A DNA stretch of 64,000 nt from a virus. Its lineage: Duplodnaviria > Caudoviricetes. Of this stretch, positions 2,798-48,664 are shown one piece after another. A model generated the notes under the pieces. It did no database searches. It had not been told where the DNA came from and saw only the letters and a program-made list of their open reading frames with translations. The translations under genes were made by a program, and so were the position numbers. Each line of letters opens with the position of its first letter. Position 1 is the first letter of the stretch. The stretch lies in the IMG/VR virus record IMGVR_UViG_3300049143_000045, positions 2,798 through 66,797 of that record; one strand, written 5' to 3'.

Positions 2798-2828
2798 TAC
2801 AACCCCCTGCAACCCCCTTGGAGCGAAC

Positions 2829-3122: not shown

Positions 3123-3123
3123 G

Positions 3124-3534: not shown

Positions 3535-3577
3535 GCCACTCGAATGCCTGTTCGATGCGCTGGGTAGGATCCTGCCC

Positions 3578-3802: not shown

Positions 3803-3816
3803 TGGGAGGCCAACTC

Positions 3817-4068
3817 GTGAAGGTCTCCACCGACTCGATAATCGCCGCCATCCTGCACCCCAGCCTCCACCTGACGGGGGACGAAGACGGAGGCGTGGGA
3901 CTCCACTGCCGGGACCACTTCGACGGCGGACGTCCTCTCGCCCACTACGAACGCACCGGGAGCGACTACCCAGACCCTCTCGTGGCGCGCGTGGCCTCGA
4001 TCCCCAGCCTGTGGGCCGAGGCGGTCAAACACCTGGAGGCGTCCCACAAATCGGAGGCCAGGTCATGA
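3817..4068 (+). CDS. Hypothetical protein
   Basis: GTG 3817 after GGAGG; stop overlaps terminase small subunit start. Confidence 0.5.
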   Translation: MKVSTDSIIAAILHPSLHLTGDEDGGVGLHCRDHFDGGRPLAHYERTGSDYPDPLVARVASIPSLWAEAVKHLEASHKSEARS

Positions 4069-4685: not shown

Positions 4686-4815
4686 CACTGCGTGAAAACG
4701 CTCCGGTTCAAGGGCGCCGCGATGGCTTACCCGCCCGTGAGCGAGTCTGACCCAGATCGAAGAGCGCGCAGGTCAGAGCGATAGGACTGCAAGTCACTGT
4801 GCGTGAGGAGCGGCC

Positions 4816-6303: not shown

Positions 6304-6318
6304 CTGAGGGAGGCCATC

Positions 6319-33607: not shown

Positions 33608-33859
33608 TCAGCCCTCCGGCCACGACTCCTTCGGTGCCACGAACGTCCCGCGGCCTTGCACGGTGACCGTCCACCCCTGCTCGCCCAGGAAAGCGACCGC
33701 CCGCCGTACCGTGCCGCGCGACACCCCATGCTCCTGCTGCAGGTGCGCCTCCGACGGCAGCACCTGTCTGGGTTGCAGGTCGCCGGCCTTGATGCGGTCG
33801 CGCAGGATCGCGGCGAGCTGCTCCCACAGCGGGGTCGGGTCGAGCTGGTCAACAGTCAC
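33608..33859 (-). CDS. Small GntR winged-helix-only regulator
   Basis: WEQLAAILRDRI...LPSEAHLQQEHGVSRGTVRRA...GRGTFV. Confidence 0.9.
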   Translation of the reverse strand: MTVDQLDPTPLWEQLAAILRDRIKAGDLQPRQVLPSEAHLQQEHGVSRGTVRRAVAFLGEQGWTVTVQGRGTFVAPKESWPEG

Positions 33860-33953
33860 GTACACAACGTTACGGACGACCATTCTGACCTGCTCAGACG
33901 GTCCGTATTGCACGGGCTGTACGAGTTGAACGAGTAGGACGTACTGTGCCGCC

Positions 33954-34211
33954 ATGTACTACCAGGACCCCGGCGACCCGGCCCTACTCAAAAACGCCCG
34001 CCTCAACGGCAGTGGCGACCACAAATGCGACGACTGCGGCCACACCGTCGTGCGCGCCTTCAGCATCCTGGGCGGATGGATGTGGCTGTCGCTCGCCGCG
34101 CAAGGCTCTGTGCCGGCCGCTCAATGCCCGGCCCGCGAGGGCGCGCTGGGCTTCGACTACGGCGCCCACCGGGTTCCGGCGAAGCTTGACGGCGAGGCGT
34201 CATCGGCCTGA
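33954..34211 (+). CDS. Hypothetical protein
   Basis: Divergent from GntR; CDDC motif. Confidence 0.5.
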   Translation: MYYQDPGDPALLKNARLNGSGDHKCDDCGHTVVRAFSILGGWMWLSLAAQGSVPAAQCPAREGALGFDYGAHRVPAKLDGEASSA

Positions 34212-34517: not shown

Positions 34518-34697
34518 CTACAGCTCGTCGGGGCTGACCTTCCGGTACGTCACCTTGACGCCCGCCTCCTTGGCGGCCTTCAGACGTCGGCGCAGGTCGG
34601 CTTCGCCGTACACGTAGATCGGACCGCCCATGATCTGCTCGGTGAGCGTCTCCTTGCCAGTCGGCTGGACGCTGAAGATGTACGTCGGCTTCGGCAT
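34518..34697 (-). CDS. Small hypothetical protein (59 aa, not in ORF track)
   Basis: GGGAG RBS; MPKPTYIFSVQPTG...KVSPDEL. Confidence 0.6.
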   Translation of the reverse strand: MPKPTYIFSVQPTGKETLTEQIMGGPIYVYGEADLRRRLKAAKEAGVKVTYRKVSPDEL

Positions 34698-34701
34698 CGG
34701 T

Positions 34702-34866
34702 TCACTCCCATGTGGTGAGGAGCTTCTTCAGCTCCTCGCGGGTGACATCGCCGTCAAGGTCTCGGGCGCGGCGGAGCAGCTTGTCGGACACGGCTGGCCA
34801 CGACTCGCGGTGGGCGGCCTGGCTCAGTTGCTGCCTTGCGATGTTGAGCGGCACCTTGGCTGCCAT
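34702..34866 (-). CDS. Small hypothetical protein (54 aa, not in ORF track)
   Basis: GAGGAG RBS; MAAKVPLNIARQQL...LLTTWE. Confidence 0.55.
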   Translation of the reverse strand: MAAKVPLNIARQQLSQAAHRESWPAVSDKLLRRARDLDGDVTREELKKLLTTWE

Positions 34867-34941
34867 CTCGCTCCTCGTTGGTGATCGGTGTGGCTGTAGG
34901 TTGTGCGGGTGGGTCCGGGGTCGATACCAGCGACCCCGGGC

Positions 34942-35100
34942 TCACCCGAGGATGCGGATCCGGTCCAGCCAGAGGGCGACCATGCCGCCGAAGCCGCCGA
35001 TGAGCACCACCAGCGGGTTGATCGGGGCTCCTTGCGCCAGGTAGCCGACTACGGCGAGCGTGGCGAAAGCGATGAACATGCTCGGGTAGGTGAGACGCAT
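34942..35100 (-). CDS. Small membrane peptide (52 aa, not in ORF track)
   Basis: AGGAGG RBS; MRLTYPSMFIAFATLAVVGYLAQGAPINPLVVLIGGFGGMVALWLDRIRILG. Confidence 0.6.
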   Translation of the reverse strand: MRLTYPSMFIAFATLAVVGYLAQGAPINPLVVLIGGFGGMVALWLDRIRILG

Positions 35101-35133
35101 CTGTCTGTCCTCCTAGAGATCGTTGCGAGCAGG

Positions 35134-35349
35134 TCAGCTGAGACCCTGTGCGCGCCGCGACGCGTCCTTCTTGAGTCGCTTCGCCTTCCTGGCGCCGACC
35201 GCCTGCTCCAATGCGGCGGCGGCCCTTTCTCGATCGACGCGGCTAACGCCGAACCCAGAGGCGACGTTCGCCAGGTTGTTGAGCTCGTTCGCGTTCGCCG
35301 ACTTGGCCCTGAGGGCGGCGAGCTGCTCGGGGGTCATCCTGCTGCGCAT
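35134..35349 (-). CDS. Small basic protein (71 aa)
   Basis: GAAGGAG RBS downstream of a leader repeat copy. Confidence 0.6.
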   Translation of the reverse strand: MRSRMTPEQLAALRAKSANANELNNLANVASGFGVSRVDRERAAAALEQAVGARKAKRLKKDASRRAQGLS

Positions 35350-35432
35350 GCTGTGCTCCTTCGGGGGATTGGTGGAGCTGCTGCTCCGGACGCCCGCCCG
35401 GCCGGGGAAGAACCGGGCGGGCATCCGCAACA

Positions 35433-35855
35433 TCAGCTGCCTGCCGCCGCGTCGACGGCGTCCCAATACGCGTCGTCGCAATACCAGACGACCGCCAGAC
35501 GCCCGCCGTGATCTTCGGCGACGTGCTGCTCAGCGGCGGACCGCGCGGCGTGATCGGTGACGTAGTTGCTGCCGGTCCACCGACAGCCGCCGCACCGCCA
35601 CGCGTAGTCGAAGCGGTGCGGGTTGGCCCACACGTCGATCCCGTGGCCCCACACGACGACCCCCAACGGGGTCGCGACGGTGGCGGCGAGCTGCTTGACG
35701 AGCACCTCCACGGCCTCCCGCTTGCCTTGTGTGGCGGCGTCGAAGTGGCTGCGGGCGCCTGGCAGGTCCTGGGCATCGAGCCGGTCGAGGATGGCATCCA
35801 CTGCCTGGTCGAGGGCGGCGGCGGCGACAGTCTTGATGAGCTCGCTCTTGTTCAT
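35433..35855 (-). CDS. Chimeric protein: HU-like first helix plus Zn-finger C-terminus
   Basis: Starts MNKSELIKTVA (HU: MNKSELIDTVA); WRCGGC...AEQHVAEDH. Confidence 0.7.
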   Translation of the reverse strand: MNKSELIKTVAAAALDQAVDAILDRLDAQDLPGARSHFDAATQGKREAVEVLVKQLAATVATPLGVVVWGHGIDVWANPHRFDYAWRCGGCRWTGSNYVTDHAARSAAEQHVAEDHGGRLAVVWYCDDAYWDAVDAAAGS

Positions 35856-35907
35856 GTGCTTCTCCTTTGATGGATGGGGTGGAGCAGGCGCTCCGGGCAC
35901 CCGCACG

Positions 35908-36120
35908 TCAGCGCTCCCAGTCCACGAGCGACGTATCGCAGTCGTCGCAGAGGTCCGCGCGGCCTCGTGTGCTGCCGGCCAGGAACGCGGCCACGATCGC
36001 AACGCCATACAGGGCGTCAGCGCCGAGGAGTATCCCGAGGGAGAAGGCGGTGAGGGCAAGCACGGTGACGGCCGTGCACTGCAGGGTGAAGCCGAGTCGA
36101 GCGGCGGCGGTCCGGATCAT
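35908..36120 (-). CDS. Small membrane protein with CxxC
   Basis: GAAAGGA RBS; two hydrophobic segments, CDDC. Confidence 0.6.
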   Translation of the reverse strand: MIRTAAARLGFTLQCTAVTVLALTAFSLGILLGADALYGVAIVAAFLAGSTRGRADLCDDCDTSLVDWER

Positions 36121-36180
36121 GATGGTTGTCCTTTCGAGGGGGTGGGGTGCCCGCCCAGTGTCGGGCGGGCACGAGGGACG

Positions 36181-36459
36181 TCAGGCGGCGCTGTTGACGG
36201 CCTGCTTGAACCCGGCGCCCGCCTTGAACGACGGGACATGCTTCGCCGCGACCTGGACGGTGCCGCCCTGCGGGTTGCGCCGCTCGCCGCCCTCACGGAA
36301 CCGACGCTCGAACACGCCGAACCCCTTAACCTCCATCCGATCGCCGGCGGCGACCGCGGCCTGAACCGTGTCGAGGGTGGCGTTGACGATCGCCGCCACG
36401 GCTGCCTTGGTCTGGCCGGTCTGCTTGGCGACGGTGTCGATCAGCTCGGACTTGTTCAT
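36181..36459 (-). CDS. hup: HU-family DNA-binding protein
   Basis: MNKSELIDTVA...GFGVFERR...RRNPQ...VPSFKAGAGFKQAV. Confidence 0.92.
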   Translation of the reverse strand: MNKSELIDTVAKQTGQTKAAVAAIVNATLDTVQAAVAAGDRMEVKGFGVFERRFREGGERRNPQGGTVQVAAKHVPSFKAGAGFKQAVNSAA

Positions 36460-36550
36460 GGGACTTCCTTTCGATGGATGGGTGGAGCGGACGCTCCGGG
36501 CCGCAGCCCCGGCAGGGGAAGTGTCGGGGCCGCACCCGCAACGGCCACCT

Positions 36551-36775
36551 TCAGCTGTGCGCCTTGGCGCAAGGGGCGCACATCGCGTCCCCGTGCCGCC
36601 TTGTTGTGGCCGGTCGGTCAGCGCACACCTCGCACGCCTTGGCGCACTTGGTGCAGTGGCCTGTGGAGGTGGTGGCGTAGTTGCCGCACCCACACAGCGG
36701 TTTGCCGTTGTAGGTGCCGGTACGGGCCATCTCGTGGGCTTCGGCCTCGGTGCGGGGGATCGGGCGTGTGGGCAT
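36551..36775 (-). CDS. Cys-rich Zn-finger peptide (74 aa)
   Basis: GGAGG RBS; CGCG, CTKC, CEVC, CAPC. Confidence 0.65.
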   Translation of the reverse strand: MPTRPIPRTEAEAHEMARTGTYNGKPLCGCGNYATTSTGHCTKCAKACEVCADRPATTRRHGDAMCAPCAKAHS

Positions 36776-36858
36776 TGGATGCCTCCTGGGTTGTGGTGGA
36801 GCGGACGCTCCGGGCCGCAGCCCCGGCTGCAACGTCGGGGCTGCGCCCGCAACAGCCG

Positions 36859-36996
36859 CTACTTCAGGAGCACACTGCCGGCCCCTTTGCACGCGGCGCA
36901 CTGCCTCTGGCCGAAGGAGCCGGGGGCGATGCCAGAGCCCTTGCATGTGCCGCACTTGACGACGTGGCCTGCACACTCCTGCTGCTTGTCACACAT
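36859..36996 (-). CDS. DnaJ-type Zn-finger peptide (45 aa)
   Basis: CGTCKGSG...CAACKGAG. Confidence 0.65.
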   Translation of the reverse strand: MCDKQQECAGHVVKCGTCKGSGIAPGSFGQRQCAACKGAGSVLLK

Positions 36997-37091
36997 CTGA
37001 ATCTCCCTGTACTGGATCGGATCAGGAGCTGGCTGCTCCGGGCACTCGCCCGACCGGGCCGGGCGGGCACCCGCAACCACCGCTCGATGTG

Positions 37092-37268
37092 TCACGGGAT
37101 TTCGCAGCAGGTGAGCGCGTGATTGTTGGCCACGTCCCGCTCCACTGGCCTGCTGGTGTGCCGGCAGCCGGAGCAGGTGTAGGGCCCCTCCTGCAGCACG
37201 CCTCTGTCGCGCGTGTGCGTCCAGGTGACGATTTCGCCGGCTCGCGTCCGGAACGTGCGCACCTTCAT
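37092..37268 (-). CDS. Zn-finger peptide resembling small AICE transfer-region proteins (58 aa)
   Basis: GAAGGAG RBS; YTCSGC...ANNHALTCCEIP. Confidence 0.6.
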   Translation of the reverse strand: MKVRTFRTRAGEIVTWTHTRDRGVLQEGPYTCSGCRHTSRPVERDVANNHALTCCEIP

Positions 37269-37383
37269 CGGGTCTCCTTCTGTCCTGATCGGTTGTGCAG
37301 GGTTTGTGGAGCGGACGCTCCGGGCGGCCCTCCCAGGAGGGTGGGAGAGCACCCGCAACAGCCGCTGCGAGGCGGGGTCGGAA

Positions 37384-37543
37384 GGTAGCCAGACCGCCTA
37401 ACCCGGTTAGTGATCTACCTCGCGGGCGAGAAGCAGCCAACCGGGCCGCGACCTGCGGAAAGTGACGAGCGTTAGCCAGTGAAGAGGGTTAGCCGGGAGC
37501 CCCTGAAACCCTCGAAAACCGGGTTCCATGAAGAGGTCAGCCA
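37384..37543. repeat. Imperfect 8-bp direct repeats, clt-like
   Basis: GGTAGCCA 37384, GTTAGCCA 37471, GTTAGCCG 37488, GTCAGCCA 37536, directly after the TraB stop. Confidence 0.4.
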
Positions 37544-37545
37544 CC

Positions 37546-39705
37546 TCACTCACCCGAGCCGCGCTGCGCCCGCACCTGCCGCAGATCGGCCGGGTCAAGC
37601 CGCAACACGTTGCCCGTGTTCGTGACCCGCACCCCGTGCTCGCGCGTCAAAATGTCGCGCAACTCGGTGCCGGTCAGCCGCTGGTACGGCAGCCAGCTCG
37701 GCGCGAGCTTCCGCAGCAGGCCAGGGATGTCCGCCAGCCGGATCCGCTCATGCCCCAGCACCTCGTCCAGGTCGTCCAGCAGATCCCGCGGCTTCTCAAC
37801 CTCGACGGCCCTTGAGCTGAGACCGGCCTGCTCGCGGAGCCTCATCGCACGCTCCACCACCGCGCCGACCTCGCCCTCCGACACGTAGAAGCAGCGCAGC
37901 AGGGCGGGCTTAGCCTCGAAGCTCTTGCCCATGCACGTGCCGACGTCGCCCATGCCTTCGTCGGTCTTCGGCTCCAGGCCGACGGCGGAGATGCCCGCCT
38001 TGTAGGAGCCGGTGCCGAGCACGGCATCATTGGACTGCTGGTCGCCGATCGCGAAGCACGCCTTGTTGGAGATGACCGTCATCAGCTTGCGCGGCAGAGA
38101 CGCTGATGACGGCTCCGGCGTAGCGAAAATCATCGTGTAGCCGTACTTGCGGGCCGCGTTGAGCAGCCTCACCGCGAGGCTGATGGCCTCCTCGCCGTAC
38201 TCCTCGTGCATGAACAGCGCCTGGCACTCGTCCACCACGATGATCCGTGGGCGCAGACGCGCGTCCTTCTCGGCGACGGCATGGTTGACGGCGCGCACGC
38301 CGTGCTCCTGCAGCGCCTTGCCGCGCACGTCGAGGTCGGCGTACTCCTTGCGCAGCCTGTTGAGGCAGGCTTCTACGATCTCGTCGCCGGTGCCGGTCAG
38401 CAGGGTCCGCAGCCGCGGCCTGATCGGTTCGTAGTCGGCGTTGACGGCCATCACGAACACGTCCGCTTCGACCAGCGGGTCGAGGATCGCGCCGAGCAGC
38501 AGGTCGATGATGAGGGTGGACTTGCCGGACCCCATCATCCCGGCGAGCGCGTAGTTCGCCTCGGACAGGCGGCCGATGATGGTCTTGCCGCGGATGTTGA
38601 CGCCCACCGGAACGCCCACGAAGTAGTCGGTGGTGCCCTCGTGGAGGAGGGGCCACGGGTCTACTGGTCCGGTGAGTGCGCCCTGGTCGGCGACCCACAG
38701 GTCCATGACGCCGGGCTTTGGTTCGGTCGGCCACACCTCGATCGGGAAGCGAACGAGGTTGTGGGCGAGCAGCTTCTTCTTCTGGTTGATCATTTCGACG
38801 GTGACGCCGGCGGGGAGTTCCAGCTGGGTGCGGTAGCCCTTGCCGTCGCGGTGGGTGGGCATCGGAAAGCGGGGACGCCACCCGTCCTTGAACGCCTTGT
38901 TGAGGGTGCTGATGTTGAGGTTGCGCAGGGCGTTGAGGATGGCACCCTCGTCGGGGATGACGTCGCGTCCTTCGGGGTCGTCGTCCGCGGACCCGACCAG
39001 CCATGTCGGTGTGCCAGCGCGGCGCCCCTCCTTCCACGCGGCGACCAGCACGGCGATCGGCGCCCCGACCGTCAGCGCAGGCCACAGCCACGCCAGGACG
39101 GTCAGCACGGCCTTGATGAGCCCGCCGACCCACAGCCACACCGCGCCGAATGAGCCCACCCCCGTGGCCCATACAGCGATGCTGAGCAGCAGCATGAGCA
39201 CGAGGAAACCGACGATGCTGATCGCGGCCACCTTGAGGATCCCGAGCACCTTCACCGGCAAGTCCATCAGCCGCGAGTGCCGCTGGTCAGCTGCCCGCTG
39301 CTTGAGCTCGATCCACTTGACCAGCGCCTCCTGGTCGCCCATTGCTTCGGCGGCGCGGATCTGCCGCCGGTAGACGCCGAGGGTGAGGCCGTCCCAGGCG
39401 CGCACCCACCAGGAGTGCCAGCCCTGCGCGATGGTGACGGTGGTGGCGACGGCACCCTGCGCGACCGCCGCAGTGCCCGGCGAGGGGCGGACCGCGATCT
39501 GACGCCCGGCGATCCGGACAGGAAGCCGCAGGCCAGGCGCGTCGTCGACGACTTCGCCCTCGTAAATCTTCTCCTCAAGCTCGCGGCTGGTGCGCGGCTC
39601 CAGTTCGGTGCTCATCTCGCCGTCTTCCGGGCGGGGCAGGGGCAGGTCTGGGGCGTCGGCGCTGTCGCGGACGAGGTACAGGGCGCGTTCCTGGATTTCG
39701 CTCAC
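37546..39705 (-). CDS. FtsK/SpoIIIE-family DNA translocase, TraB/TraSA-like
   Basis: N-terminal TM segments, Walker A AGMMGSGKST, Walker B IIVVDECQ, C-terminal wHTH-like domain; GTG 39705. Confidence 0.9.
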   Translation of the reverse strand: MSEIQERALYLVRDSADAPDLPLPRPEDGEMSTELEPRTSRELEEKIYEGEVVDDAPGLRLPVRIAGRQIAVRPSPGTAAVAQGAVATTVTIAQGWHSWWVRAWDGLTLGVYRRQIRAAEAMGDQEALVKWIELKQRAADQRHSRLMDLPVKVLGILKVAAISIVGFLVLMLLLSIAVWATGVGSFGAVWLWVGGLIKAVLTVLAWLWPALTVGAPIAVLVAAWKEGRRAGTPTWLVGSADDDPEGRDVIPDEGAILNALRNLNISTLNKAFKDGWRPRFPMPTHRDGKGYRTQLELPAGVTVEMINQKKKLLAHNLVRFPIEVWPTEPKPGVMDLWVADQGALTGPVDPWPLLHEGTTDYFVGVPVGVNIRGKTIIGRLSEANYALAGMMGSGKSTLIIDLLLGAILDPLVEADVFVMAVNADYEPIRPRLRTLLTGTGDEIVEACLNRLRKEYADLDVRGKALQEHGVRAVNHAVAEKDARLRPRIIVVDECQALFMHEEYGEEAISLAVRLLNAARKYGYTMIFATPEPSSASLPRKLMTVISNKACFAIGDQQSNDAVLGTGSYKAGISAVGLEPKTDEGMGDVGTCMGKSFEAKPALLRCFYVSEGEVGAVVERAMRLREQAGLSSRAVEVEKPRDLLDDLDEVLGHERIRLADIPGLLRKLAPSWLPYQRLTGTELRDILTREHGVRVTNTGNVLRLDPADLRQVRAQRGSGE

Positions 39706-40022
39706 TGGAGCACCGCCCTCGCGCTGGTGGTGCGGTAGACCCGCAGGTGCCGGCCGTCCATGGCAAGCCAGGAGGCGAGGCGGACGGCGATCCAGGCGAC
39801 GATGACGCTGGCGAGGTAGAGGGCGGTGCGGGCCGCGTACCAGGCCACCACGAACGGCGGGTCGACGAGCACCTGGAGCAGCCACCATGCCCGCTGCCGC
39901 CAGGTGGAGCGGCGGACGGCGGCGTAGAGCTGGCTGGCGGTGCGGTCATCCGCCTGCGGCTTGCAGATCGACGCGAGCGTGAGCAGGGCGAACACGAGCA
40001 CGAGCGTCAGGGCGGAGTTCAT
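39702..40022 (-). CDS. Membrane protein, Spd-like
   Basis: Hydrophobic ORF coupled to TraB. Confidence 0.55.
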   Translation of the reverse strand: MNSALTLVLVFALLTLASICKPQADDRTASQLYAAVRRSTWRQRAWWLLQVLVDPPFVVAWYAARTALYLASVIVAWIAVRLASWLAMDGRHLRVYRTTSARAVLQ

Positions 40023-40261
40023 CGGAGCTCACCTCTCATACGCGCGCGTTCGATGCGGCGCGCCGTGCGGTAGCCGAAGAGGACGGACACGGTCAGGAGT
40101 GACGCCACGAGGGCGACGGCGGCGGGCAGCACCAACGCGGTCACGAACGTGAGCGCGACGACGGCGGCGAAGTACGCCAGCATTTCGAGAAGGTCAAGGA
40201 TGATGTAGGCGAGGACCCTTGCCGCGACCCTCATAGCCGCGAACACCACGGCGCTGCTCAC
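40019..40261 (-). CDS. Membrane protein, Spd-like
   Basis: Hydrophobic 80-aa coupled ORF. Confidence 0.55.
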   Translation of the reverse strand: MSSAVVFAAMRVAARVLAYIILDLLEMLAYFAAVVALTFVTALVLPAAVALVASLLTVSVLFGYRTARRIERARMRGELR

Positions 40262-41622
40262 GCTTCAGCCCTCCTTTTCGACTCGAGGGCGCGCCTGGTG
40301 CGGCCGTCCATCTCAGCCAGCCACTGCCGCGCCTTCTTCGCCCCCCACTGGGGGCTGCACCTGCCGGCCGCGGCCAACTCGGCGCCGTTGGGGATACGCC
40401 GCTCTACCTCGACGATCTCCTGCCAGCGACGCCACATCGCGTCGGTGGCGCGTGTTTCATTCGCGGTTTCATCACCGGTTTCGGCGGCATCCTGCGGAGG
40501 CGTGTCGCGCAACCTGTCGATCAACTCGTCGATGTCGCCAGGCGAAACCTCGACCTCAACACCGCGGACCGTTTCACCCGGCGTTTCGATCGAAGGCAGT
40601 TCGCGACCTTCCAGGCGGGCGATGTAGGCGGCCATCGACTGGATCGCAGCTTGCGTTTCGGGGTCGCGCTGCGCCTGGATGGCTGTCGTCCACTCCCGCA
40701 TCGCGTCGGCCAGCTTCACGGCTTCGTGGTGCTTGGCGGCGCCGGTGACGGCGGGGTGGTCGATGTGCGCCCACGGGGCAACCTCTGGCAGGTCGAGGAG
40801 ACTGGCCCCGCCGTACAGGGCGGTGATCTGGTCGAGCAGCGCCCACTGCATGCGCTCGTCGCGCGGCAGCCCGGTGTGCTCGACCGCCTTGTCCAGCGCC
40901 CGATCCAGCTTGGCCATCGCGGCGCGCAGCTTGCGGTCGGAGACGCCCTGATCGCGCAGCGCCCGCGCCTTCTTGGCGGCCAGGGCCACGCGGGTCAGCC
41001 TGCGGTGCGCGTCGACCTCGGAGGCGCTGCGGTCCTTAGCTTCGGCCAGACCGAGCCAGACCAGCGCACGCTCAGGGGTGATCCGCCAGTGGATGCCGGA
41101 CAGGCCAGTGACGCGGCGCCGCTCCAACCGCATGCCGCGCTCCCACAACCACGCCGCAACGAGCGGGGCGGCAAGCCTGAACACGACCTCGCCGAAGTTG
41201 CGCGCGTCGATCGCGGAAAGAGCGGCGGTGAGGCAGGCGAGCGCCCACACGGCGACCCCGTCGACGCCAGCCGAGTAGTTGTCGCGCATCGACTTGCGGG
41301 CGCGCAACGCGGAGATGACGATGGCGCCTTCGATGAACGCGAAGCCGAGGACCCGCATGGGGCCGTCGACGCCGAGAACGTCGGCGAAGAACTTCCACAT
41401 GCCTTGGGCGGAGACGCTGGTGGCGATGCCCGCCATGACCCAGGTCAGCCAGTCTTCGGGCGCGTGCCTCTTGACGGTGGTGCGGGGCTTGCGTGCTCGC
41501 CGTGCTGCGCGGGCTGCGTTGACCGCGGCTCGGGCGAGGATCCAGGTGGCGGTGAGGGCGCAGACTCCGCCGACGATCCACACCACCCAGGTGGGTGGAA
41601 GGTAGGCATCCATATCGTTCAC
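40258..41622 (-). CDS. DUF2637/SpdB2-like multi-TM spreading protein with C-terminal HTH
   Basis: About 4-5 TM helices, basic coiled coil, C-terminal IPNGAELAAAGRCSPQWG HTH-like segment; in TraB operon. Confidence 0.65.
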   Translation of the reverse strand: MNDMDAYLPPTWVVWIVGGVCALTATWILARAAVNAARAARRARKPRTTVKRHAPEDWLTWVMAGIATSVSAQGMWKFFADVLGVDGPMRVLGFAFIEGAIVISALRARKSMRDNYSAGVDGVAVWALACLTAALSAIDARNFGEVVFRLAAPLVAAWLWERGMRLERRRVTGLSGIHWRITPERALVWLGLAEAKDRSASEVDAHRRLTRVALAAKKARALRDQGVSDRKLRAAMAKLDRALDKAVEHTGLPRDERMQWALLDQITALYGGASLLDLPEVAPWAHIDHPAVTGAAKHHEAVKLADAMREWTTAIQAQRDPETQAAIQSMAAYIARLEGRELPSIETPGETVRGVEVEVSPGDIDELIDRLRDTPPQDAAETGDETANETRATDAMWRRWQEIVEVERRIPNGAELAAAGRCSPQWGAKKARQWLAEMDGRTRRALESKRRAEA

Positions 41623-41762
41623 TGCTCCGTTTCCGGGTGCTGCAGGTGCGGTGGTTTGGTGGCCCGGCGCGGGCTGCTGGGCTGGGTGTGGTGCCCGCGC
41701 CGGGCGGCTGGTTGGGTGGCCCCGCCCCCGTCCCTCCAGATCCCAGGGCGGGACCACCCGGT

Positions 41763-42011
41763 CTATGAGGCGCGGCGGGCGGCTTCTGCCAGATCGGCCA
41801 TGTCGTACGGAGGCCGGCGCATGCGGTGCACGGTCGGGCGCGCCCGATCAGCGGCTGCTTCGATCTGGGTGTGGATGGCGAGCAGCGCGTGGCCGATGCC
41901 GAGGAGGGAGGCGCGGACGGCGACCATGTCGCCTTCGTGGGTGGAGTGGTAGCTGCTGGCCAGGTGCAGGTAGTCGGCGGCCTGCTCGGCGTGGGTGTCG
42001 TGCTGGCACAT
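41763..42011 (-). CDS. Hypothetical protein
   Basis: 82-aa ORF in the leftward operon. Confidence 0.5.
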   Translation of the reverse strand: MCQHDTHAEQAADYLHLASSYHSTHEGDMVAVRASLLGIGHALLAIHTQIEAAADRARPTVHRMRRPPYDMADLAEAARRAS

Positions 42012-42027
42012 GTCGGATCCCTCAGGG

Positions 42028-42291
42028 TTAGGCGGTTCGGTTACGACGCCAGTCGGCGAGCTGGACGACGGTGGCGGGCTGCGACGGGGTGGCGATGGGC
42101 CGCTGGTATCCGGCCGACTTCAGGAGCTCGATGTCCTCGCGCCTGCTGTCGATCACCTGCTGTCGCAAGACGACCATCTGCCTCTTCACGTCGACGATCT
42201 GCTGCTTGAGCTCCTCGAACAGCTCCATGTACGCGCGGTCACAGCTCATGTGGCGCTCACCCTGGGCGGCAGCGGCCGTAGACTCGTTCAC
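42028..42291 (-). CDS. Hypothetical coiled-coil protein
   Basis: AGGAGG RBS; ends VVQLADWRRNRTA. Confidence 0.55.
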   Translation of the reverse strand: MNESTAAAAQGERHMSCDRAYMELFEELKQQIVDVKRQMVVLRQQVIDSRREDIELLKSAGYQRPIATPSQPATVVQLADWRRNRTA

Positions 42292-42378
42292 CGGATCTCT
42301 CCTCCTGTAGGCAGGTGGTGGGGATCAAGGGCGGGTCTTGGTGTTCCAGCACCGGACTCGCCCGTTTGCGTCTGCGGG

Positions 42379-42672
42379 CTACGAGGCCGACAGCTGAGAC
42401 TCGGCAAGCCACTGGGCGGCGAACTCGTCGACGTCAACGGGGCGACCGGAGTTGATCTCGGCGGCCAGGTCGTCGACGAACCGCGTCAGGATTTTGATGG
42501 AGCGGCCGAACTTGCGGCCGGGAAATCGGTTGGCGTGGTAGCGGCGGTAGACGCTGAGCGGGCTTACGCCGAGGAGGTCGGCGGTGTCCTTGACGGGCAA
42601 GTACGGCGGGCGCTTCGCGCTCCCGTTTATCTCCTGGCTCACGTCATCCGTAGGGCGCTGGGTGCTCTGCAT
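42379..42672 (-). CDS. Xis-like HTH DNA-binding protein
   Basis: LPVKDTADLLGVSPLSVYRR...GRKFGRSIKI. Confidence 0.75.
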   Translation of the reverse strand: MQSTQRPTDDVSQEINGSAKRPPYLPVKDTADLLGVSPLSVYRRYHANRFPGRKFGRSIKILTRFVDDLAAEINSGRPVDVDEFAAQWLAESQLSAS

Positions 42673-42730
42673 GCTCTGGACAATATAAGGACTACGTAGT
42701 GGCTGCAAGGCTGAGTAAGCGGATCTAACC

Positions 42731-42762
42731 AAAAAGAAAGCCCCCGGCGAGGCCGAGGGCTT
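42731..42762 (-). terminator. Intrinsic terminator after GntR
   Basis: Minus strand AAGCCCTCGGC...CCGGGGGCTTTCTTTTT. Confidence 0.7.
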
Positions 42763-42779
42763 GGACGTAGCGGAGGACT

Positions 42780-43493
42780 TCAGGAGACAGGTTGGCGGTA
42801 TCGCACCTGGTAGAGGTGCGCACCCTTGATCATGATGGACGCCTCCACGGGCTCGCCGGCTGGCCCATAGATCACGCGGAACTGGCGGATCACCGGGACG
42901 CCAGGCAGATCCAGCAACTCGACCTCCTCCGTCGTCGGCATGCGCGCCGAGATCGTGTCCACCATGTCCGTCTCGGCATGCCCCAGCTCGGCGAGGACCC
43001 GCGGCGCGCCACCCTTGATCTTCGCCTTGGCTTCCAGCGCAGTACCCTCGGCGATCTCGACGGGATAGAACGACCAGTCCAGCTCGACCGGCCGGTCGTT
43101 GTGCCGCAGCAGTCGCTTGCGCAGGAGCGCCACGCTGGCCTCCGGCAAGCCGAGCGCATCCCGGACCTCGCCGGGAGGCTGCTCCCGACCCACCTGCAGA
43201 AGCTCGTAGCTGTAGCCACCCGGAGACGGCGCAAAGTAGGAGGAGACGTCCACGATGAACGGCTGCCGGTTCTCCACGAAGACGCCCTTACCTCGGCGAC
43301 TCGACAGGAACCCCTCGCTCTTCAGCGCGTCGACCGCCCGCTGGATGGTGGGATTGGACGCATCGAATTCCTCGACCAGCTGCGAGTTGCTCGGTAGCTG
43401 GTCGCCTGGCTTGAGGTCGCCCGCCATGATCCTGGCCCTCAACTCGGCGGCGACCCGATCGGAAAGAAGCCGCGTGTCCTCGCGCTTCGCCAT
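42780..43493 (-). CDS. GntR-family regulator with UTRA domain (KorSA/TraR-like)
   Basis: LKPGDQLPS...SNPTIQRAVDALKSEG...GKGVFV plus UTRA domain. Confidence 0.9.
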   Translation of the reverse strand: MAKREDTRLLSDRVAAELRARIMAGDLKPGDQLPSNSQLVEEFDASNPTIQRAVDALKSEGFLSSRRGKGVFVENRQPFIVDVSSYFAPSPGGYSYELLQVGREQPPGEVRDALGLPEASVALLRKRLLRHNDRPVELDWSFYPVEIAEGTALEAKAKIKGGAPRVLAELGHAETDMVDTISARMPTTEEVELLDLPGVPVIRQFRVIYGPAGEPVEASIMIKGAHLYQVRYRQPVS

Positions 43494-44970: not shown

Positions 44971-45106
44971 GATGGGGTGACTCCTGTTATAGGGGAGGAT
45001 CTAGGCCATACTCTGAGTGCAGCAAGCAAAATGCAATAGGCGAAACGAAAAAGGCGAATAGTCCTGTATGTACCGCAAAGGGGCATCTCGTCACGAGGAG
45101 GCTGCA

Positions 45107-45955
45107 ATGACGTCATCAAGCCCGACGGTCAAGCGTCGCCGACTGTCAACAGAGCTCCGCAAACTCCGCGTCGCCGCAGGCCTCGAAGTCAAAGACGCCG
45201 CCCGCCGCCTCGAATGGGACCCCACCAAGATCCACCGCATGGAGCGCAACAAATGGCTGCGCCCCGACCCACGCGACGTCCGCGACCTACTCGACCTGTA
45301 CGGCCTCGCCGACGAACCCACCCGCGAAGCGATGCTCACCCTCGCCCGCGAATCCCGAGAACGCGGCTGGTGGGCCGACTACCAAGACGTCTTCCGCGGC
45401 TCACTGCCCGACTTCGAAGCCAGTGCCACCCTCATCCGCACCTACGAGGCCATGTTCGTGCCCGGCCTCCTGCAGACCGCGGACTACACGCGCGCCATCA
45501 TGCGCGCCGGCTGCTGCCTTGACGACGCCACCATCGAGCGCCGCGTCGAGGCGCGCCAGGGGCGGCAGGCGATCCTCGACCGCGATGCCCCGCCGCAACT
45601 GTGGGCGGTCATCGATGAGGCAGCCCTGCAGAAGATGGTGGGCGGCGCGGATGTGATGCGCGCGCAACTCGAGCACATTCTCAAACTCGCTGAGCGGCCG
45701 GACGTTGCCATTCAGGTGCTGCCGAACTCGGCGGGCGCGCACGCTGCTATGTGTGGCGGGTTCGTTGTACTTGACTTCGCTTCCGAACTCGACCCTAGCC
45801 TCGTAGTGATCGAGACTGCGACCGACAGCCTCTATCTTGAGCAGGCGGAGGAACTTCGTCGTTACACGGTGATTTACAGCCATGTGCAGGCACTCGCTCT
45901 TTCGGCTGCCGAGTCGGCGAAGTTTATGGAGTCGATGATCCGACAACTGCAGTAG
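45107..45955 (+). CDS. XRE HTH plus DUF5753 protein (WhiJ/Scr1-like)
   Basis: RRRLSTELRKLR...GWW..Y...VPGLLQTADY...LWAVIDEAAL. Confidence 0.92.
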   Translation: MTSSSPTVKRRRLSTELRKLRVAAGLEVKDAARRLEWDPTKIHRMERNKWLRPDPRDVRDLLDLYGLADEPTREAMLTLARESRERGWWADYQDVFRGSLPDFEASATLIRTYEAMFVPGLLQTADYTRAIMRAGCCLDDATIERRVEARQGRQAILDRDAPPQLWAVIDEAALQKMVGGADVMRAQLEHILKLAERPDVAIQVLPNSAGAHAAMCGGFVVLDFASELDPSLVVIETATDSLYLEQAEELRRYTVIYSHVQALALSAAESAKFMESMIRQLQ

Positions 45956-46285: not shown

Positions 46286-46530
46286 TGGGAGGAATTTGGG
46301 AGGAGCGGGTCCCTCCAGAACCCCCTAAGACGCACTACGACTATCCCTCTGACCAGGCATAATCCTTGATTTACCTGGCCGTCAAGGTGGCCTAACGTTG
46401 TTTGCAAGCAGGATGTCAGGAGTTCGAATCTCCTAGGCTCCACCCATTCCTAGCCTCCTGACCAGGCTAAACAGCTTGCCCGAACTGCATAGGAATGATC
46501 TTCGCCCCCCCAATGGGAGGAATTTGGGAG
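46286..46530. repeat. Integrase arm-type repeats flanking the att core
   Basis: TGGGAGGAATTTGGGAG exact at 46286-46302 and 46514-46530; CTGACCAGGC also on both sides. Confidence 0.7.
46401..46444 (+). other. att core: 3' half of tRNA-Ala(TGC), not an intact tRNA
   Basis: TTTGCAAGCAGGATGTCAGGAGTTCGAATCTCCTAGGCTCCACC gives anticodon loop, T-arm and acceptor 3' strand; no D-arm upstream. Confidence 0.85.
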
Positions 46531-47873
46531 ATCAACTCCCACGGGCCTAGATGGGGCTCCAACAGCTCCTGCAATACGGGCAGCATCGAAGGCCCCATTC
46601 GGGCACGACGCCGGAGCGTCTCCTCCCATAGCCCCTGAAGGCCGACGACGATCTCCTGGCGCATCTCCGGCGTCACGTGCGAGTACCGGCCGCTGATCCC
46701 TGGCAGCTTGTGAGCGAGCCGCTCAGCCTGAGCCACCTCCGGGATCCGCAGGCCGATCAGCATCACCTTCTGCGAGTGCTTGAAGTCGTGCGGCGTGAAG
46801 CCCTCCACGACCGGCAGCCACGTCTGCACCGCACAGCCACCGCCGAGCCGCCTCGGAGACGACATCTGGTCGACCGTCTCCGACCGGCGCCGCAGGACAT
46901 ACTTGCCCAAATCGTCCACCATGATCCGCGCCTGCGGACGGTCGCCCTTGGCCGGCAGCCGCGCGTCAGAAGCCTTGTGGATGAGGGCGGCCATGTCTGT
47001 CCGCTTCCAGTGGTCCTGCGTCCGTGAGCGGAACACGTAGTCGCCCTTGTGCTGAGCGCAGCCGCACGGACGGGACTCGGTGCGCTGCAGATGCTCCGAC
47101 ATCAGCCGCGCCAAGAACGGCGGCAGCGGGATCTTCCTGCGCCGGTTGTGCTTCGGCGGCGCCTTCAGGAATTGCCCCCGGACCTCGCGCAGCTGCCACT
47201 GCACGTCGATCAGCCCCAGCTTGCAGTACTTCCGCTCAAGACCGCGGACCTCACCGAGCCGCATCCCCGTGTACGCCGACAGCAACGTCGACACGAACTC
47301 GTCAGCCCGGCCAGTCAGCAGGCCGGCACGCTCGGCGATGATGAGCGCCTGGTACGGCGAGCACCACAGGCTCTCCTCCTCCACATGGATGTCCTGCCGT
47401 CCGCGCTGGCGTCGCTGATGGGCGGGATTTGCATCGATGACCTTCGCGACGGCAGCGTCATCGAGGATCGTGCTGAGAATCGATCTGGCCTTCTTCGCCG
47501 AGGAGACAGCGAAGCCGCGCTTCACGATGTCGCGCTCCCAGGCGTTGATCTGGCTGAGCGACAGCGACCACATCGGTTCGTCGCCAAGGCGGGGGATGAT
47601 GTGCGTCCAGAGGTGGTAGGCGTAGTTTTCCTCGGTGGTCTCCGCGACGTTCTGTGAGGGCAGCCACTCATCAGCGATGAACTGCCGGAGGGTCATCTCG
47701 CCCTTGACCGGATCGTTCCAGCGCTTCGCCCGCGCCTTCGCCTCCTGCTCCCTGCCCCAGTCGAGGGCATCCTGCTTGGTCTCGAACCCCGGGCGGCTGC
47801 GCTCGCCGGTCGGGGTCTGGTACTTGACGCGCCAGGGCGTAGGCCCGTTTCCACGCTTCTCGGCGTAGGCCAT
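46467..47873 (-). CDS. int: Tyrosine integrase
   Basis: MAYAEKRG..WRVKY arm-binding N-terminus, YTGMRLGE, HDFKH, LAH, RYSH. Confidence 0.93.
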   Translation of the reverse strand: MAYAEKRGNGPTPWRVKYQTPTGERSRPGFETKQDALDWGREQEAKARAKRWNDPVKGEMTLRQFIADEWLPSQNVAETTEENYAYHLWTHIIPRLGDEPMWSLSLSQINAWERDIVKRGFAVSSAKKARSILSTILDDAAVAKVIDANPAHQRRQRGRQDIHVEEESLWCSPYQALIIAERAGLLTGRADEFVSTLLSAYTGMRLGEVRGLERKYCKLGLIDVQWQLREVRGQFLKAPPKHNRRRKIPLPPFLARLMSEHLQRTESRPCGCAQHKGDYVFRSRTQDHWKRTDMAALIHKASDARLPAKGDRPQARIMVDDLGKYVLRRRSETVDQMSSPRRLGGGCAVQTWLPVVEGFTPHDFKHSQKVMLIGLRIPEVAQAERLAHKLPGISGRYSHVTPEMRQEIVVGLQGLWEETLRRRARMGPSMLPVLQELLEPHLGPWELISQIPPIGGAKIIPMQFGQAV

Positions 47874-47890
47874 GTGCGTCTCGCTCCTCC

Positions 47891-48664
47891 TCAGTGGTGG
47901 TCCGGCACCACGTCGTCGACCACGGAGTGGACCTCGGACAGCAGATCTACGACCGGCTCCGCGGGGACGTCGACGTGGACGTCGCCCGGCTCTTCGGGCT
48001 GCACCCCGGCGTCCCCCGTGGGGGCGGCGGTCTGCGCCGGCGCCGAGCTGACGGGGTCCAGCGTAGGCGTGTCCGACGGCGCCGGAGAGTCGATAGGAGA
48101 CGGCCCCGTGGTAGACGCTGACGACGCTGACGGGGTCTCTGCGGCAGGGGAGTCCGCGGTGGGAGTTCCCGCGGACGGGGTTTCCGCGACGGGGGTGGGC
48201 GGCCACTCCTCCGCCACCCTCTCGCGCTCCTTCGCCTTCGCCCGCTGCGGCTGAGGGGATGGCCGCGCGGGACGGGTCAGGCGGAAAGCCGGGCTCGGCT
48301 CGGCCGCCCTGTCCAGGGTCCGCGTCGCAACAGCGGGCGGACTGGCCCGCGCCGGCGACTCCGTGCTGTTGCTCAGGACGGCGGCGCCGCCCGCTCCTGC
48401 CACCACCATGACGCCACACGCGACTGCGGCCGTCTGCTCGGTGGCGAGCCGCCGGAGCGGCTCTCCCAGCAGTTGCACGACGGGCAGGCAGCTGAGCAGG
48501 CCCTTGTGCAGGATGGCGCGGACGGCGGTGACGGCGCTGCTGTGCGGCTGCTCGCTGTTGACGACGATGATCGGGTTTTCGCCGGTGTCGTCGTCATCGA
48601 CGAACGCTGCGACCTCGGGCTCGAGTTCGGTCCGGCGGAATCCGCCGGGGTCGGCGGCGCTCAT
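47891..48664 (-). CDS. Single-TM protein with Pro/Ser/Thr-rich C-terminus
   Basis: MSAADPGG start at 48664; one hydrophobic helix then low-complexity tail. Confidence 0.55.
   Translation of the reverse strand: MSAADPGGFRRTELEPEVAAFVDDDDTGENPIIVVNSEQPHSSAVTAVRAILHKGLLSCLPVVQLLGEPLRRLATEQTAAVACGVMVVAGAGGAAVLSNSTESPARASPPAVATRTLDRAAEPSPAFRLTRPARPSPQPQRAKAKERERVAEEWPPTPVAETPSAGTPTADSPAAETPSASSASTTGPSPIDSPAPSDTPTLDPVSSAPAQTAAPTGDAGVQPEEPGDVHVDVPAEPVVDLLSEVHSVVDDVVPDHH

What the first reader, a model, noticed from the sequence alone, without database searches (positions are those of the whole stretch)
35134..37359. Array of tiny genes, most preceded by a conserved two-hairpin leader repeat
Seen: six copies (35372, 35879, 36482, 36796, 37025, 37306). 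In the sense direction each reads GTTGCGGRYG-(variable stem-loop)-CCCGGAGC-N4/5-GCTCCAC, lies just after the previous gene's stop (or the clt-like region for the first copy) and ends 21-38 nt before an ATG with a strong RBS. The variable stem differs in sequence but keeps pairing (GCCCGCCCGG/CCGGGCGGGC; GCAGCCCCGGC/GTCGGGGCTGC; CTCCCA/TGGGAG) and is absent from the 35879 copy; the GGAGC/GCTCC stem is invariant while its loop varies. Inference: selection acts on RNA or ssDNA structure, so this could be an mRNA processing/stabilising or translational element, or a recombination site that shuffles [repeat-RBS-ORF] cassettes. Loose analogues are mycobacteriophage cluster K start-associated sequences and T4 PeSL elements, but I cannot match this motif to a named family.
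Basis: partly seen in the sequence, partly recalled or inferred. Interest (0 to 1): 0.85.

Follow-up and report, generated by a model that had tools for sequence, protein, structure and literature searches.

The report
Switchable hairpin repeats between phage genes
A soil actinomycete phage that carries a plasmid-type DNA-transfer module separates its tiny accessory genes with copies of a conserved, previously undescribed folded element of 62-69 bases (one 36-base copy lacks the main stem), which can adopt two exclusive shapes and marks the points where related phages have swapped genes.

Summary
Exactly six copies lie at 35372-37365 on the minus strand, and there are none elsewhere in the 64 kb.

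I changed the anatomy in one respect. The element starts 6-8 nt upstream of GTTGCGG, at a GCKGNN box that often holds the previous gene's stop codon. With this box included, the most stable fold is one long imperfect hairpin.

The same element occurs in about 30 IMG/VR contigs, with 3-6 clustered copies per record, mostly just downstream of an FtsK-like Tra gene.
- Covariation is strong: 13 of 21 pairs show compensatory changes.
- G-U pairs are about 4 times commoner on the sense strand, so selection acts on the sense-strand RNA, or on that strand as ssDNA.
- Nearly identical copies sit between unrelated genes on both sides. Identity starts at -6 and ends at GCTCC.

There is no sigma-70 promoter, no U-tract terminator, no Rfam match, no integron integrase and no target-site duplication. 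No RNA data were available, so function is inferred.

My best guess (0.4) is an intercistronic mRNA processing and stability module that also serves as a gene-swap junction.

The scan has noted analogous hairpin-punctuated gene arrays on two other actinobacterial elements, but a sequence look-up of one copy found no look-alike in the scan's index.

The parts
37306..37365 (-). Element copy A, the first of the array. It follows the non-coding stretch after Tra. A 37-nt leader separates it from the ATG at 37268.
   Evidence: R1 72.1 bits; R2 78.2 bits. The long hairpin is the MFE fold at -40.1 kcal/mol, z -4.7. Its leader is homologous to that of the first copy in L014, L059 and L010.
37023..37083 (-). 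Element copy B. Its loop is AGCCA and it ends GCTCCTG.
   Evidence: R1 43.4 bits. Long-hairpin MFE -43.2 kcal/mol, z -4.2.
36796..36859 (-). Element copy C. Its upstream box GCGGCT overlaps the TAG stop of the 45-aa gene by one base.
   Evidence: R1 62.2 bits. Long-hairpin MFE -46.6 kcal/mol, z -5.2.
36482..36548 (-). Element copy D, in front of the HU gene.
   Evidence: R1 64 bits. Long-hairpin MFE -43.4 kcal/mol, z -2.9.
35879..35912 (-). Element copy E, truncated. It has no variable stem and its tail reads GTGCGG. It sits in front of the 140-aa gene, whose leader and first codons copy those of HU.
   Evidence: R1 27.3 bits. Its fold is not better than shuffles, z -0.45. Leader and start compared with HU.
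35372..35437 (-). Element copy F. Its upstream box GCTGAT contains the TGA stop of the 140-aa gene.
   Evidence: R1 59.5 bits. Long-hairpin MFE -51.3 kcal/mol, z -7.6.
36149..36170 (-). Plain hairpin GCCCGCCC-GACACT-GGGCGGGC between HU and the 70-aa gene. It has the same stem as copies B and F but no conserved boxes. It is possibly a remnant copy.
   Evidence: Read from the sequence. The models did not report it.
37092..37268 (-). Gene 1, 58 aa, Cys-rich.
   Evidence: ORF with an RBS. No Pfam or PHROG family.
36859..36996 (-). Gene 2, 45 aa, with two CxxCxGxG zinc-finger-like motifs.
   Evidence: Weak DnaJ_CXXCXGXG match, E 0.013. A homologue lies behind an element in L098.
36551..36775 (-). 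Gene 3, 74 aa, Cys-rich.
36181..36459 (-). Gene 4, an HU-type DNA-binding protein of 92 aa.
   Evidence: PF00216, E 1.3e-23. Homologues follow an element in several of the nine related loci that hold them.
35908..36120 (-). Gene 5, 70 aa, hydrophobic.
35433..35855 (-). Gene 6, 140 aa, with an N-terminus copied from HU.
35134..35349 (-). Gene 7, 71 aa, a basic protein. Its family is the most widespread small gene of these arrays and is usually the first gene after Tra.
   Evidence: Homologues in 14 of 35 loci. Position in relatives.
37546..39888 (-). FtsK/SpoIIIE-like Tra protein of 780 aa, directly upstream of the array.
   Evidence: Pfam and PHROG FtsK/SpoIIIE matches. Closest annotated relatives are Tra proteins of actinomycete plasmids, e.g. 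pCM32 at 43% identity.

Best explanation
**What it is.** Each repeat is a cis-acting structured module of the leftward Tra-to-small-gene transcript. It is 62-69 nt long, or 36 nt in the truncated copy.

**Shown:**
- The module runs from a GCKGNN box, through G(U/C)UG(C/G)GG, a hypervariable but always paired stem, CCGGAGC and a 3-6-nt 'loop', to GCUCC(AC).
- It can fold in two mutually exclusive ways.
- Fold (i) is one long imperfect hairpin. The box pairs with the 'loop' plus GC, and GYU pairs with AGC. It keeps a conserved G-G mismatch and a second small internal loop.

**Inferred:**
- The long hairpin is an intercistronic target for a double-strand-specific RNase of the RNase III type, as in the T7 early region.
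- Cleavage in the conserved lower stem separates the cistrons.
- The variable hairpin stays on the upstream message as a 3' protective cap.
- The freed 3' strand then folds into GGAGC/GCUCC at the 5' end of the downstream message, ahead of its C-rich spacer and strong RBS. This stabilises the message and insulates its translation start.

**Second role.** Because every copy shares the same ends, the modules are also the junctions at which related elements gain, lose and reorder genes.
For: **Real and specific.**
- Six copies, all in this one array.
- Related copies in about 30 viral contigs, clustered at 3-6 per record within 1-7 kb.

**Structure under selection.**
- 13 of 21 pairs of the long hairpin have compensatory changes. 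91% of cells are paired, against 36-53% in slid controls.
- The lower-stem pair between box position -4 and the last 'loop' base is G-C 30 times and U-A 20 times.
- Base-of-stem pairs switch G-C to A-U or C-G in divergent copies.

**Sense strand.**
- 119 G-U pairs on the sense strand against 32 on the antisense. The sense strand is more stable in 59 of 65 copies, p = 4e-10.
- Half-site spacing of 3-6 nt is unlike a dimeric dsDNA operator.

**Two folds.**
- The long hairpin is the MFE fold in 5 of 6 window copies.
- It is more stable in 63 of 67 family copies, by a mean 6.6 kcal/mol. Native upstream boxes stabilise it more than permuted ones: -6.63 against -4.89 +/- 0.34.
- The GCUCC arm, which the long hairpin does not need, is still present in 57 of 71 matches that were selected without it.

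**Placement fits an intercistronic mRNA element.** Copies start 1-14 nt after a stop codon, end 16-40 nt before an RBS and ATG, and are always co-oriented with the genes.

**Junction role.**
- 27 of 33 near-identical element pairs have unrelated flanks on both sides. Identity rises at -6 and falls right after GCUCC.
- Gene order is permuted among relatives.
- The HU leader and start were copied onto gene 6.
Against: - No RNA ends, cleavage or expression data exist (one search lists no RNA holder), so the RNase step is pure inference.
- RNase III does not by itself explain why the lower stem is nearly invariant in sequence, rather than merely paired.
- G-T-tolerant ssDNA hairpins would give the same strand asymmetry.
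- The islands of identity with sharp edges on both sides look more like a discrete mobile or site-specific unit than a passively retained RNA signal.
- Copy E lacks the long stem, yet it sits in the same position.
- Ascertainment used the conserved boxes, so their 'invariance' is partly built in.
- The alignments behind searches were fitted to the models' structures.
Confidence: 0.4

Rival explanations
1. Structure-specific recombination site or small mobile palindromic unit acting as folded single-stranded DNA. This would be like integron attC sites or Vibrio VCRs: a hairpin with a conserved base and a variable top that flanks promoterless small ORFs and lets cassettes be excised, captured and reordered.
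For: - The anatomy matches: an imperfect hairpin with a conserved 13-nt base, conserved mismatches and a variable top, structured on one strand only.
- All copies are co-oriented, between small orphan ORFs, with stop codons often inside the 5' arm.
- Near-identical copies lie between unrelated genes on both sides, with sharp identity edges at -6 and after GCTCC.
- Cargo order differs among relatives.
Against: - The attC core sites RYYYAAC...GTTRRRY are not present in that order. GTT lies at the 5' end and its partner is AGC, not AAC (sequence).
- No integron-type integrase or other recombinase lies next to the arrays. The only tyrosine integrase is a phage-type gene about 9 kb away.
- No resolvase and no Y1 transposase. 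No target-site duplication.
- The T-G wobble conserved in 58 of 63 copies is more natural in RNA.
- TraB-type transfer is thought to move double-stranded DNA (established knowledge).
Confidence: 0.2
2. Binding site on the nascent RNA for a regulator encoded by the element. This could be a lambda N/nut-like antiterminator or a translational repressor. The small basic gene-7 family, usually the first gene after the first copy, is a candidate.
For: - There is near-invariant primary sequence around a freely covarying stem, with a conserved G-G mismatch and conserved unpaired bases.
- The gene-7 family is the most widespread small gene of these arrays (14 of 35 loci) and typically follows the first copy.
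Against: - No RNA-binding domain is recognisable in any array protein.
- Gene 7 is absent from many element-bearing loci, and from the complete phage G408, within the DNA held.
- No U-tract terminators exist for an antiterminator to overcome.
Confidence: 0.13
3. Translation-sensing switch. A ribosome terminating at the upstream stop codon, which lies in or just before the 5' arm, melts the lower stem. The freed 3' strand then forms GGAGC/GCUCC, and expression of the next gene is thereby coupled to the previous one.
For: - There are two exclusive folds whose shared strand is GGAGC.
- Stop codons lie 1-14 nt before, or inside, the 5' arm.
- GCUCC is complementary to GGAG-type RBSs. Without the upstream box, the two states are near-isoenergetic: mean difference 0.7 +/- 2.8 kcal/mol.
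Against: - Modelled RBS accessibility does not change when the 5' arm is masked: 0.51 against 0.50, p = 0.44.
- First copies of arrays have no upstream ORF.
- Complementarity of the GUUGC tail to GGAGC is only 4 of 5 positions, about 8% by chance (my own calculation).
Confidence: 0.1
4. Composite terminator/promoter unit, of the kind seen in T4 PeSLs or in the U-less terminators followed by early promoters in phiC31. The hairpin would stop upstream transcription and the conserved flank would restart it.
For: - The layout resembles PeSLs: a stem-loop plus a conserved sequence in front of small genes in a plastic region, with gene swaps at the repeats (PMC2839356, PMC4122927).
- Terminators without a poly-U tail are reported for actinophage phiC31 (Ingham et al. 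1995, as listed in PMC3993855; paper not held).
Against: - No sigma-70-like promoter and no U-tract terminator lie in 34600-37700.
- The spacer to the RBS is variable and holds no conserved -10.
- Mycobacterial RNA polymerase needs a U-tract to terminate (PMC3993855).
- The model finds nothing in phiC31.
Confidence: 0.1
5. Double-stranded DNA operator or TraB recognition site, that is, a distributed clt.
For: - GGAGC-N-GCTCC is a palindrome.
- CCCGGA resembles part of the pSVH1 TraB recognition octamer GACCCGGA (from memory).
- The arrays lie next to Tra.
Against: - Half-site spacing varies from 3 to 6 nt.
- G-U-type one-sided changes keep pairing on one strand only.
- Elements also occur in phages without a Tra gene in the DNA held, e.g. 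G408.
- A separate set of GGCTNNC repeats lies directly behind Tra.
Confidence: 0.04

Closest known systems
PeSL (promoter-early stem-loop) cassettes of T4-type phages (PMC2839356, PMC4122927)
   Same: Short conserved repeats with a stem-loop lie between small, mostly orphan genes of a plastic region. Copies are co-oriented with the genes. Unrelated genes are exchanged at the repeats.
   Different: PeSLs carry a sigma-70 early promoter and a terminator. Here there is no promoter or U-tract, the conserved part is itself the base of the hairpin, and there are two exclusive folds. The host is an actinomycete rather than a Gram-negative bacterium, and there is no sequence relation.
SAS / ESAS of cluster K mycobacteriophages (Pope et al. 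2011, as described in PMC12699233)
   Same: Actinophage-specific motifs lie in front of many start codons. ESAS is a pair of imperfect inverted repeats with a variable spacer. Their function is still untested.
   Different: The SAS consensus GGGATAGGAGCCC includes the RBS and abuts the start codon. Here the element ends 16-40 nt upstream of the ATG, has a different sequence, and is confined to one 1-7-kb array per genome.
Integron attC sites / Vibrio cholerae repeats
   Same: Strand-specific imperfect hairpins with a conserved base, conserved irregularities and a variable top separate small promoterless ORFs. Near-identical sites have unrelated neighbours.
   Different: The core-site consensus and its order are not met. 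No IntI, attI or Pc is adjacent. No evidence of excision exists.
RNase III processing hairpins between T7 early genes (established knowledge)
   Same: Long imperfect hairpins with internal loops lie in each intercistronic gap of a phage operon of small genes. The hairpin remains as a 3' stabiliser after cutting.
   Different: Cleavage is not shown here. The sequence of the lower stem is far more conserved than RNase III would need. The refolding small hairpin has no T7 counterpart.
REP/BIME elements with RAYT transposases
   Same: Palindromic intergenic repeats are transcribed within operons, where they stabilise upstream mRNA. They are mobilised as ssDNA hairpins.
   Different: REPs are spread over the host chromosome and come with a RAYT gene. 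These elements are confined to the mobile element: the class-level genome scan was at chance level except for one prophage. No Y1 transposase was found.

Membership tests
Integron attC | Core sites 5'-RYYYAAC ... GTTRRRY-3' that pair with each other | tested here: not met
   The sense strand reads 5'-GYTGCGG ... CCGGAGC-3'. The antisense strand reads 5'-GCTCCGG ... CCGCARC-3'. GTT is at the wrong end and pairs with AGC.
Integron attC | Imperfect hairpin with a conserved base and variable terminal structure, functional on one strand | tested here: met
Integron attC | Adjacent IntI-type tyrosine recombinase with attI and Pc | tested here: not met
   Only a phage-type integrase at 46470-48419, about 9 kb away. 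Tra lies upstream of the array.
T4 PeSL | Sigma-70 early promoter (-35/-10) inside the repeat | tested here: not met
   0 promoter-like sites in 34600-37700. No conserved -10 in the spacers.
T4 PeSL | Repeats flank unrelated ORFs and mark exchange points | tested here: met
Cluster K SAS/ESAS | SAS consensus GGGATAGGAGCCC within a few bases of the start codon | tested here: not met
   The leaders shown lack it. The consensus is taken from PMC12699233.
Intrinsic terminator | GC-rich hairpin followed by a U-tract | tested here: not met
   0 terminator-like sites. The bases after the hairpin are A/C-rich.
Any Rfam 15 family | Match at or near the gathering score | tested here: not met
   No hit at the gathering score in the window. 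Only noise at E up to 5 in 34700-37600.
REP/RAYT | Many copies across the host chromosome plus a Y1 (RAYT) gene | tested here: not met
   The scan of 401 Actinomycetes genomes was at control level, except for the prophage in G002. PF01797 is absent from the record.
RNase III processing site (T7 type) | Intercistronic imperfect hairpin of about 20 bp or more | tested here: met
   Predicted 25-33-bp hairpins.
RNase III processing site (T7 type) | Cleavage by RNase III in vivo or in vitro | not testable with these tools
   No RNA run holds the stretch.

The most novel reading that the evidence does not exclude
The arrays are an integron-like gene-cassette system of temperate actinophages and AICEs. 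The folded sense-strand hairpin would be a new kind of structure-specific recombination site, with its own core sequence and a recombinase that is not yet identified. Through it, small accessory genes would be captured, excised and reordered next to the TraB transfer module.
Probability: 0.15. Interest if true: 0.9.

Novelty: new variant of a known kind. Interest (0 to 1): 0.62.

Why it matters
**A well-supported structured element.** Few structured elements have been characterised in actinomycete phages. This one has clear covariation, a defined pair of exclusive folds and sharp boundaries. It is therefore a ready candidate for a new RNA family, and a tractable model for how high-GC phages and AICEs organise polycistronic expression without canonical promoters and terminators.

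**A window on gene exchange.** It marks the exact junctions of gene exchange in a lineage of tailed phages that carry a plasmid-type TraB module. This makes the mechanism of accessory-gene turnover in these hybrids directly testable.

**Possible use as a genetic part.** If the element is a processing or insulation part, it could also be used as one in Streptomyces-type hosts.

Tried and rejected
- **RNA evidence.** No RNA holder is listed for the stretch. Laying the four DNA runs gave only contig pieces. Contigs of the source runs break at copies C and D because these copies are repeats. Parts without cover in the two foreign runs are not used as evidence.
- **Genome-wide scans.** The 401-genome Actinomycetes scan was at control level except for G002, Nonomuraea sp. 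SBT364.
- **Annotated collections.**
  - The 2.7-kb array has no DNA match in 'phages' beyond two 80-nt chance hits.
  - Tra has no protein match in 'phages'.
  - Gene 7 has no match in 'phages' or 'plasmids'.
  - The model finds nothing in phiC31, pCM32 or pPaSha2.
- **More distant Tra modules.** L257 and L258 (44-45% Tra identity) have no such element and no analogous repeat. The Tra alignment was too divergent for the search for related loci.
- **RBS sequestration as the output of the switch.** Modelling does not support it.
- **Register of the upstream box.** A fixed-register test of pairing between the upstream box and the loop was not significant (680 of 5000 permutations), because loops of 5 nt pair in a shifted register. 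The structure-aware alignment and the energy permutation were used instead.
- **RNA-specific tetraloops.** UUCG or GNRA loops are not enriched at the apex (7 of 67 with UUCG).
- **Target-site duplications.** None found.
- **Protein clues.** The small proteins gave nothing from Pfam, PHROGs or the ESM Atlas.
- **Literature.** No description of this motif was found. Ingham et al. 1995 could not be read.
Full report
**Context**

The window is 64 kb of a 66.8-kb linear IMG/VR virus record, estimated 87% complete, with 67.6% G+C.
- The left part encodes a tailed-phage virion and lysis set on the + strand: terminase, capsid and amidase, plus an 1184-aa ORF placed like a tape-measure gene.
- From about 44 kb down to 32 kb a leftward block encodes a GntR-UTRA regulator, a 499-aa protein of no known family, and a 780-aa FtsK/SpoIIIE-like protein.
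- The closest annotated relatives of that 780-aa protein are Tra proteins of actinomycete plasmids and AICEs (pCM32 of Saccharopolyspora at 43% identity, then Pseudonocardia, Streptomyces and Nonomuraea).
- The finding lies directly downstream of this Tra gene. A tyrosine integrase and HTH regulators lie at 45-50 kb.

**Observation**

Eight short genes follow Tra on the minus strand.
- The palindrome GGAGC-N4/5-GCTCC occurs six times in the window, all in their intergenic gaps, against 0.75 expected.
- Exact GTTGCGGRYG occurs five times, all in the same gaps.
- A covariance model built from relatives (R1) and run without filters finds these six copies at 72-27 bits and nothing else above 18.6 bits.

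**Family**

An exact-pattern scan of IMG/VR returned 95 stretches. After filtering for a real hairpin, and with cmsearch, about 70 copies in about 30 contigs are genuine.
- Whole-record searches of five relatives give 3-6 copies each, always clustered within 1-7 kb.
- One of these relatives is a complete phage with direct terminal repeats.
- In 19 of 35 loci a Tra homologue is present. The first copy then typically lies roughly 100-350 nt behind its stop codon.
- Ten loci also hold a homologue of one conserved 268-aa family that my script grouped and I read as a lysin (not checked against Pfam), so 'tailed phage plus TraB module' appears to be a recurrent architecture.
- One carrier is a named genome, Nonomuraea sp. 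SBT364.
- The element is absent from Tra modules at 44-45% identity, from pCM32, from pPaSha2 and from phiC31. It is not in Rfam.
- The scan's own index holds no look-alike of copy D, the one copy looked up. It does hold two reports of analogous hairpin-punctuated small-gene arrays in other actinobacterial mobile elements.

**Structure**

RNAalifold on 21 copies gives a 5-nt unpaired tail, a hairpin closed by G-C/G-C, and the abutting GGAGC/GCUCC hairpin.
- On 84 distinct sequences, 10 of 11 pairs of the variable hairpin show compensatory changes. 94% of cells pair, against 38-57% when partners are slid.
- Copies found only by the model show G-C changed to A-U and to C-G at the very base of the stem. 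In the small hairpin they show only G-U-type one-sided changes.
- The sense strand holds 119 G-U pairs against 32 on the antisense strand, and folds better in 59 of 65 copies. Selection is therefore on the sense strand as RNA, or as ssDNA.

**Revised anatomy**

Base frequencies show that conservation starts 6-8 nt upstream of GTTGCGG: G 76%, C 72%, G/T 91%, G 87% at positions -6 to -3.
- There are two box types. GCGG goes with 'loops' ending CC. GCUG, which often supplies the previous gene's TGA, goes with 'loops' ending CA.
- With this box included, the minimum-energy fold of five window copies is a single long hairpin, with z-scores from -2.9 to -7.6.
- In this fold the box pairs with the 'loop' plus GC, GYU pairs with AGC, and a G-G mismatch and a second small internal loop are kept.
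- Across the family this fold beats the two-hairpin fold in 63 of 67 copies, by 6.6 kcal/mol on average.
- Native boxes stabilise it more than boxes permuted among copies.
- A second model with this structure (R2) gives 13 of 21 pairs with compensatory changes. The lower-stem pair is G-C in 30 copies and U-A in 20.
- This alignment was fitted to the model, and copies are related, so the counts lean towards the structure.
- The last bases of GCUCC are not needed by the long hairpin. They are nevertheless present in 57 of 71 matches chosen without reference to them, and most of the 14 exceptions are chance hits or decayed copies.

The element therefore encodes two mutually exclusive folds that share the strand GGAGC.

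**Evolutionary behaviour**

Cargo differs widely among relatives, and shared gene families occur in different orders.
- One 61-nt variant, 93-100% identical including its otherwise free-to-vary stem, lies between four different pairs of unrelated genes in four contigs.
- Of 33 pairs of elements at least 90% identical in different loci, 27 have unrelated flanks on both sides. Identity jumps to 85% at -6 and falls to background right after GCUCC.
- There is no target-site duplication.
- In the window, gene 6 has acquired a copy of the HU leader and the first 7 codons of HU (6 identical residues). The first copy keeps the leader that precedes gene-7 homologues in relatives, although a different gene follows it here.

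**What it is not**

- It is not a promoter or a terminator. There are no sigma-70-like promoters or U-tract terminators in the array, and the spacers to the RBS are variable, A/C-rich and G-poor.
- It is not a dsDNA operator. The half-site spacing of 3-6 nt argues against one.
- It has no adjacent recombinase. The attC core consensus is not met, no IntI-like gene is adjacent, and there is no resolvase or Y1 transposase.

**Mechanism**

Nothing beyond structure, placement and turnover is shown.

I rank first (0.4) an intercistronic processing and stability module. In this reading the long hairpin is a double-strand RNase target. The variable stem stays as a 3' cap, and GGAGC/GCUCC forms at the new 5' end ahead of the RBS. 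This uses every conserved feature, but no RNA data are available.

| Rival | Weight | Main point |
|---|---|---|
| attC-like ssDNA recombination site or mobile unit | 0.2 | Favoured by the sharp-edged islands of identity; weakened by the missing recombinase |
| Site for an element-encoded RNA-binding regulator | 0.13 | |
| Translation-sensing switch | 0.1 | Modelled RBS accessibility does not respond |
| PeSL-like terminator/promoter | 0.1 | |
| dsDNA operator or TraB site | 0.04 | |

**Verdict**

This is a real, well-delimited, previously undescribed structured repeat family. It is a new variant of the known kind 'conserved hairpin repeats that punctuate and shuffle small-gene arrays of mobile elements'.

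Noticed in passing
window 37546-43493 (minus strand); also L006, L010, L014, L022, L032, L035, L039, L052, L059: A tailed-phage genome carries a plasmid/AICE-type module of a GntR regulator, a 499-aa protein and an FtsK-like Tra. Ten related loci also hold a homologue of one conserved 268-aa family that I read as a lysin (not checked against Pfam), so this hybrid architecture appears to be recurrent.
   Followed up: partly
window 35833-35912 versus 36437-36548: Gene 6 (140 aa) begins with a copy of the HU gene's leader and first 7 codons (MNKSELI). Its homologues in L098 and L022 start differently. This looks like a recombination that moved element, leader and start codon onto another ORF.
   Followed up: partly
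window 37366-37545 (minus strand): The non-coding stretch between the Tra stop codon and the first element holds about five co-oriented GGCT(A/G)(A/C/T)C words and two short palindromes (AACCCGGTT, CTAACCGGGTTAG). This is a possible clt, and it is unrelated in sequence to the element boxes.
   Followed up: no
window 36149-36170: A hairpin with the same stem as copies B and F, but without the conserved boxes, fills the one gap of the array that has no element.
   Followed up: no
L022, about 65-145 nt upstream of its HU gene (HU at 2651-2920, minus strand); same DNA as Nonomuraea sp. SBT364, G002:C155: This is a decayed copy: GTTCGGGG..., CCCGGGGC-GACC-GGTCA. The small hairpin can no longer form, and the models did not report it. 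Copy numbers from the models are therefore lower bounds.
   Followed up: partly
G408 (record of L076), 2924-8107: In a complete 43.7-kb phage with direct terminal repeats, the four copies lie near the left end. They sit in front of larger genes, one of which starts like a Ku protein, and no Tra gene is in the DNA held.
   Followed up: no
window 46470-48419 and 45068-45955: There is a tyrosine integrase whose longest ORF is unusually long (650 aa) with weak Pfam scores. Next to it is an HTH_31/DUF5753 regulator.
   Followed up: no
window 33608-33955: A 115-aa protein consists of little more than a GntR-type HTH. It has paralogue-like copies in several related loci, up to three in L034.
   Followed up: no
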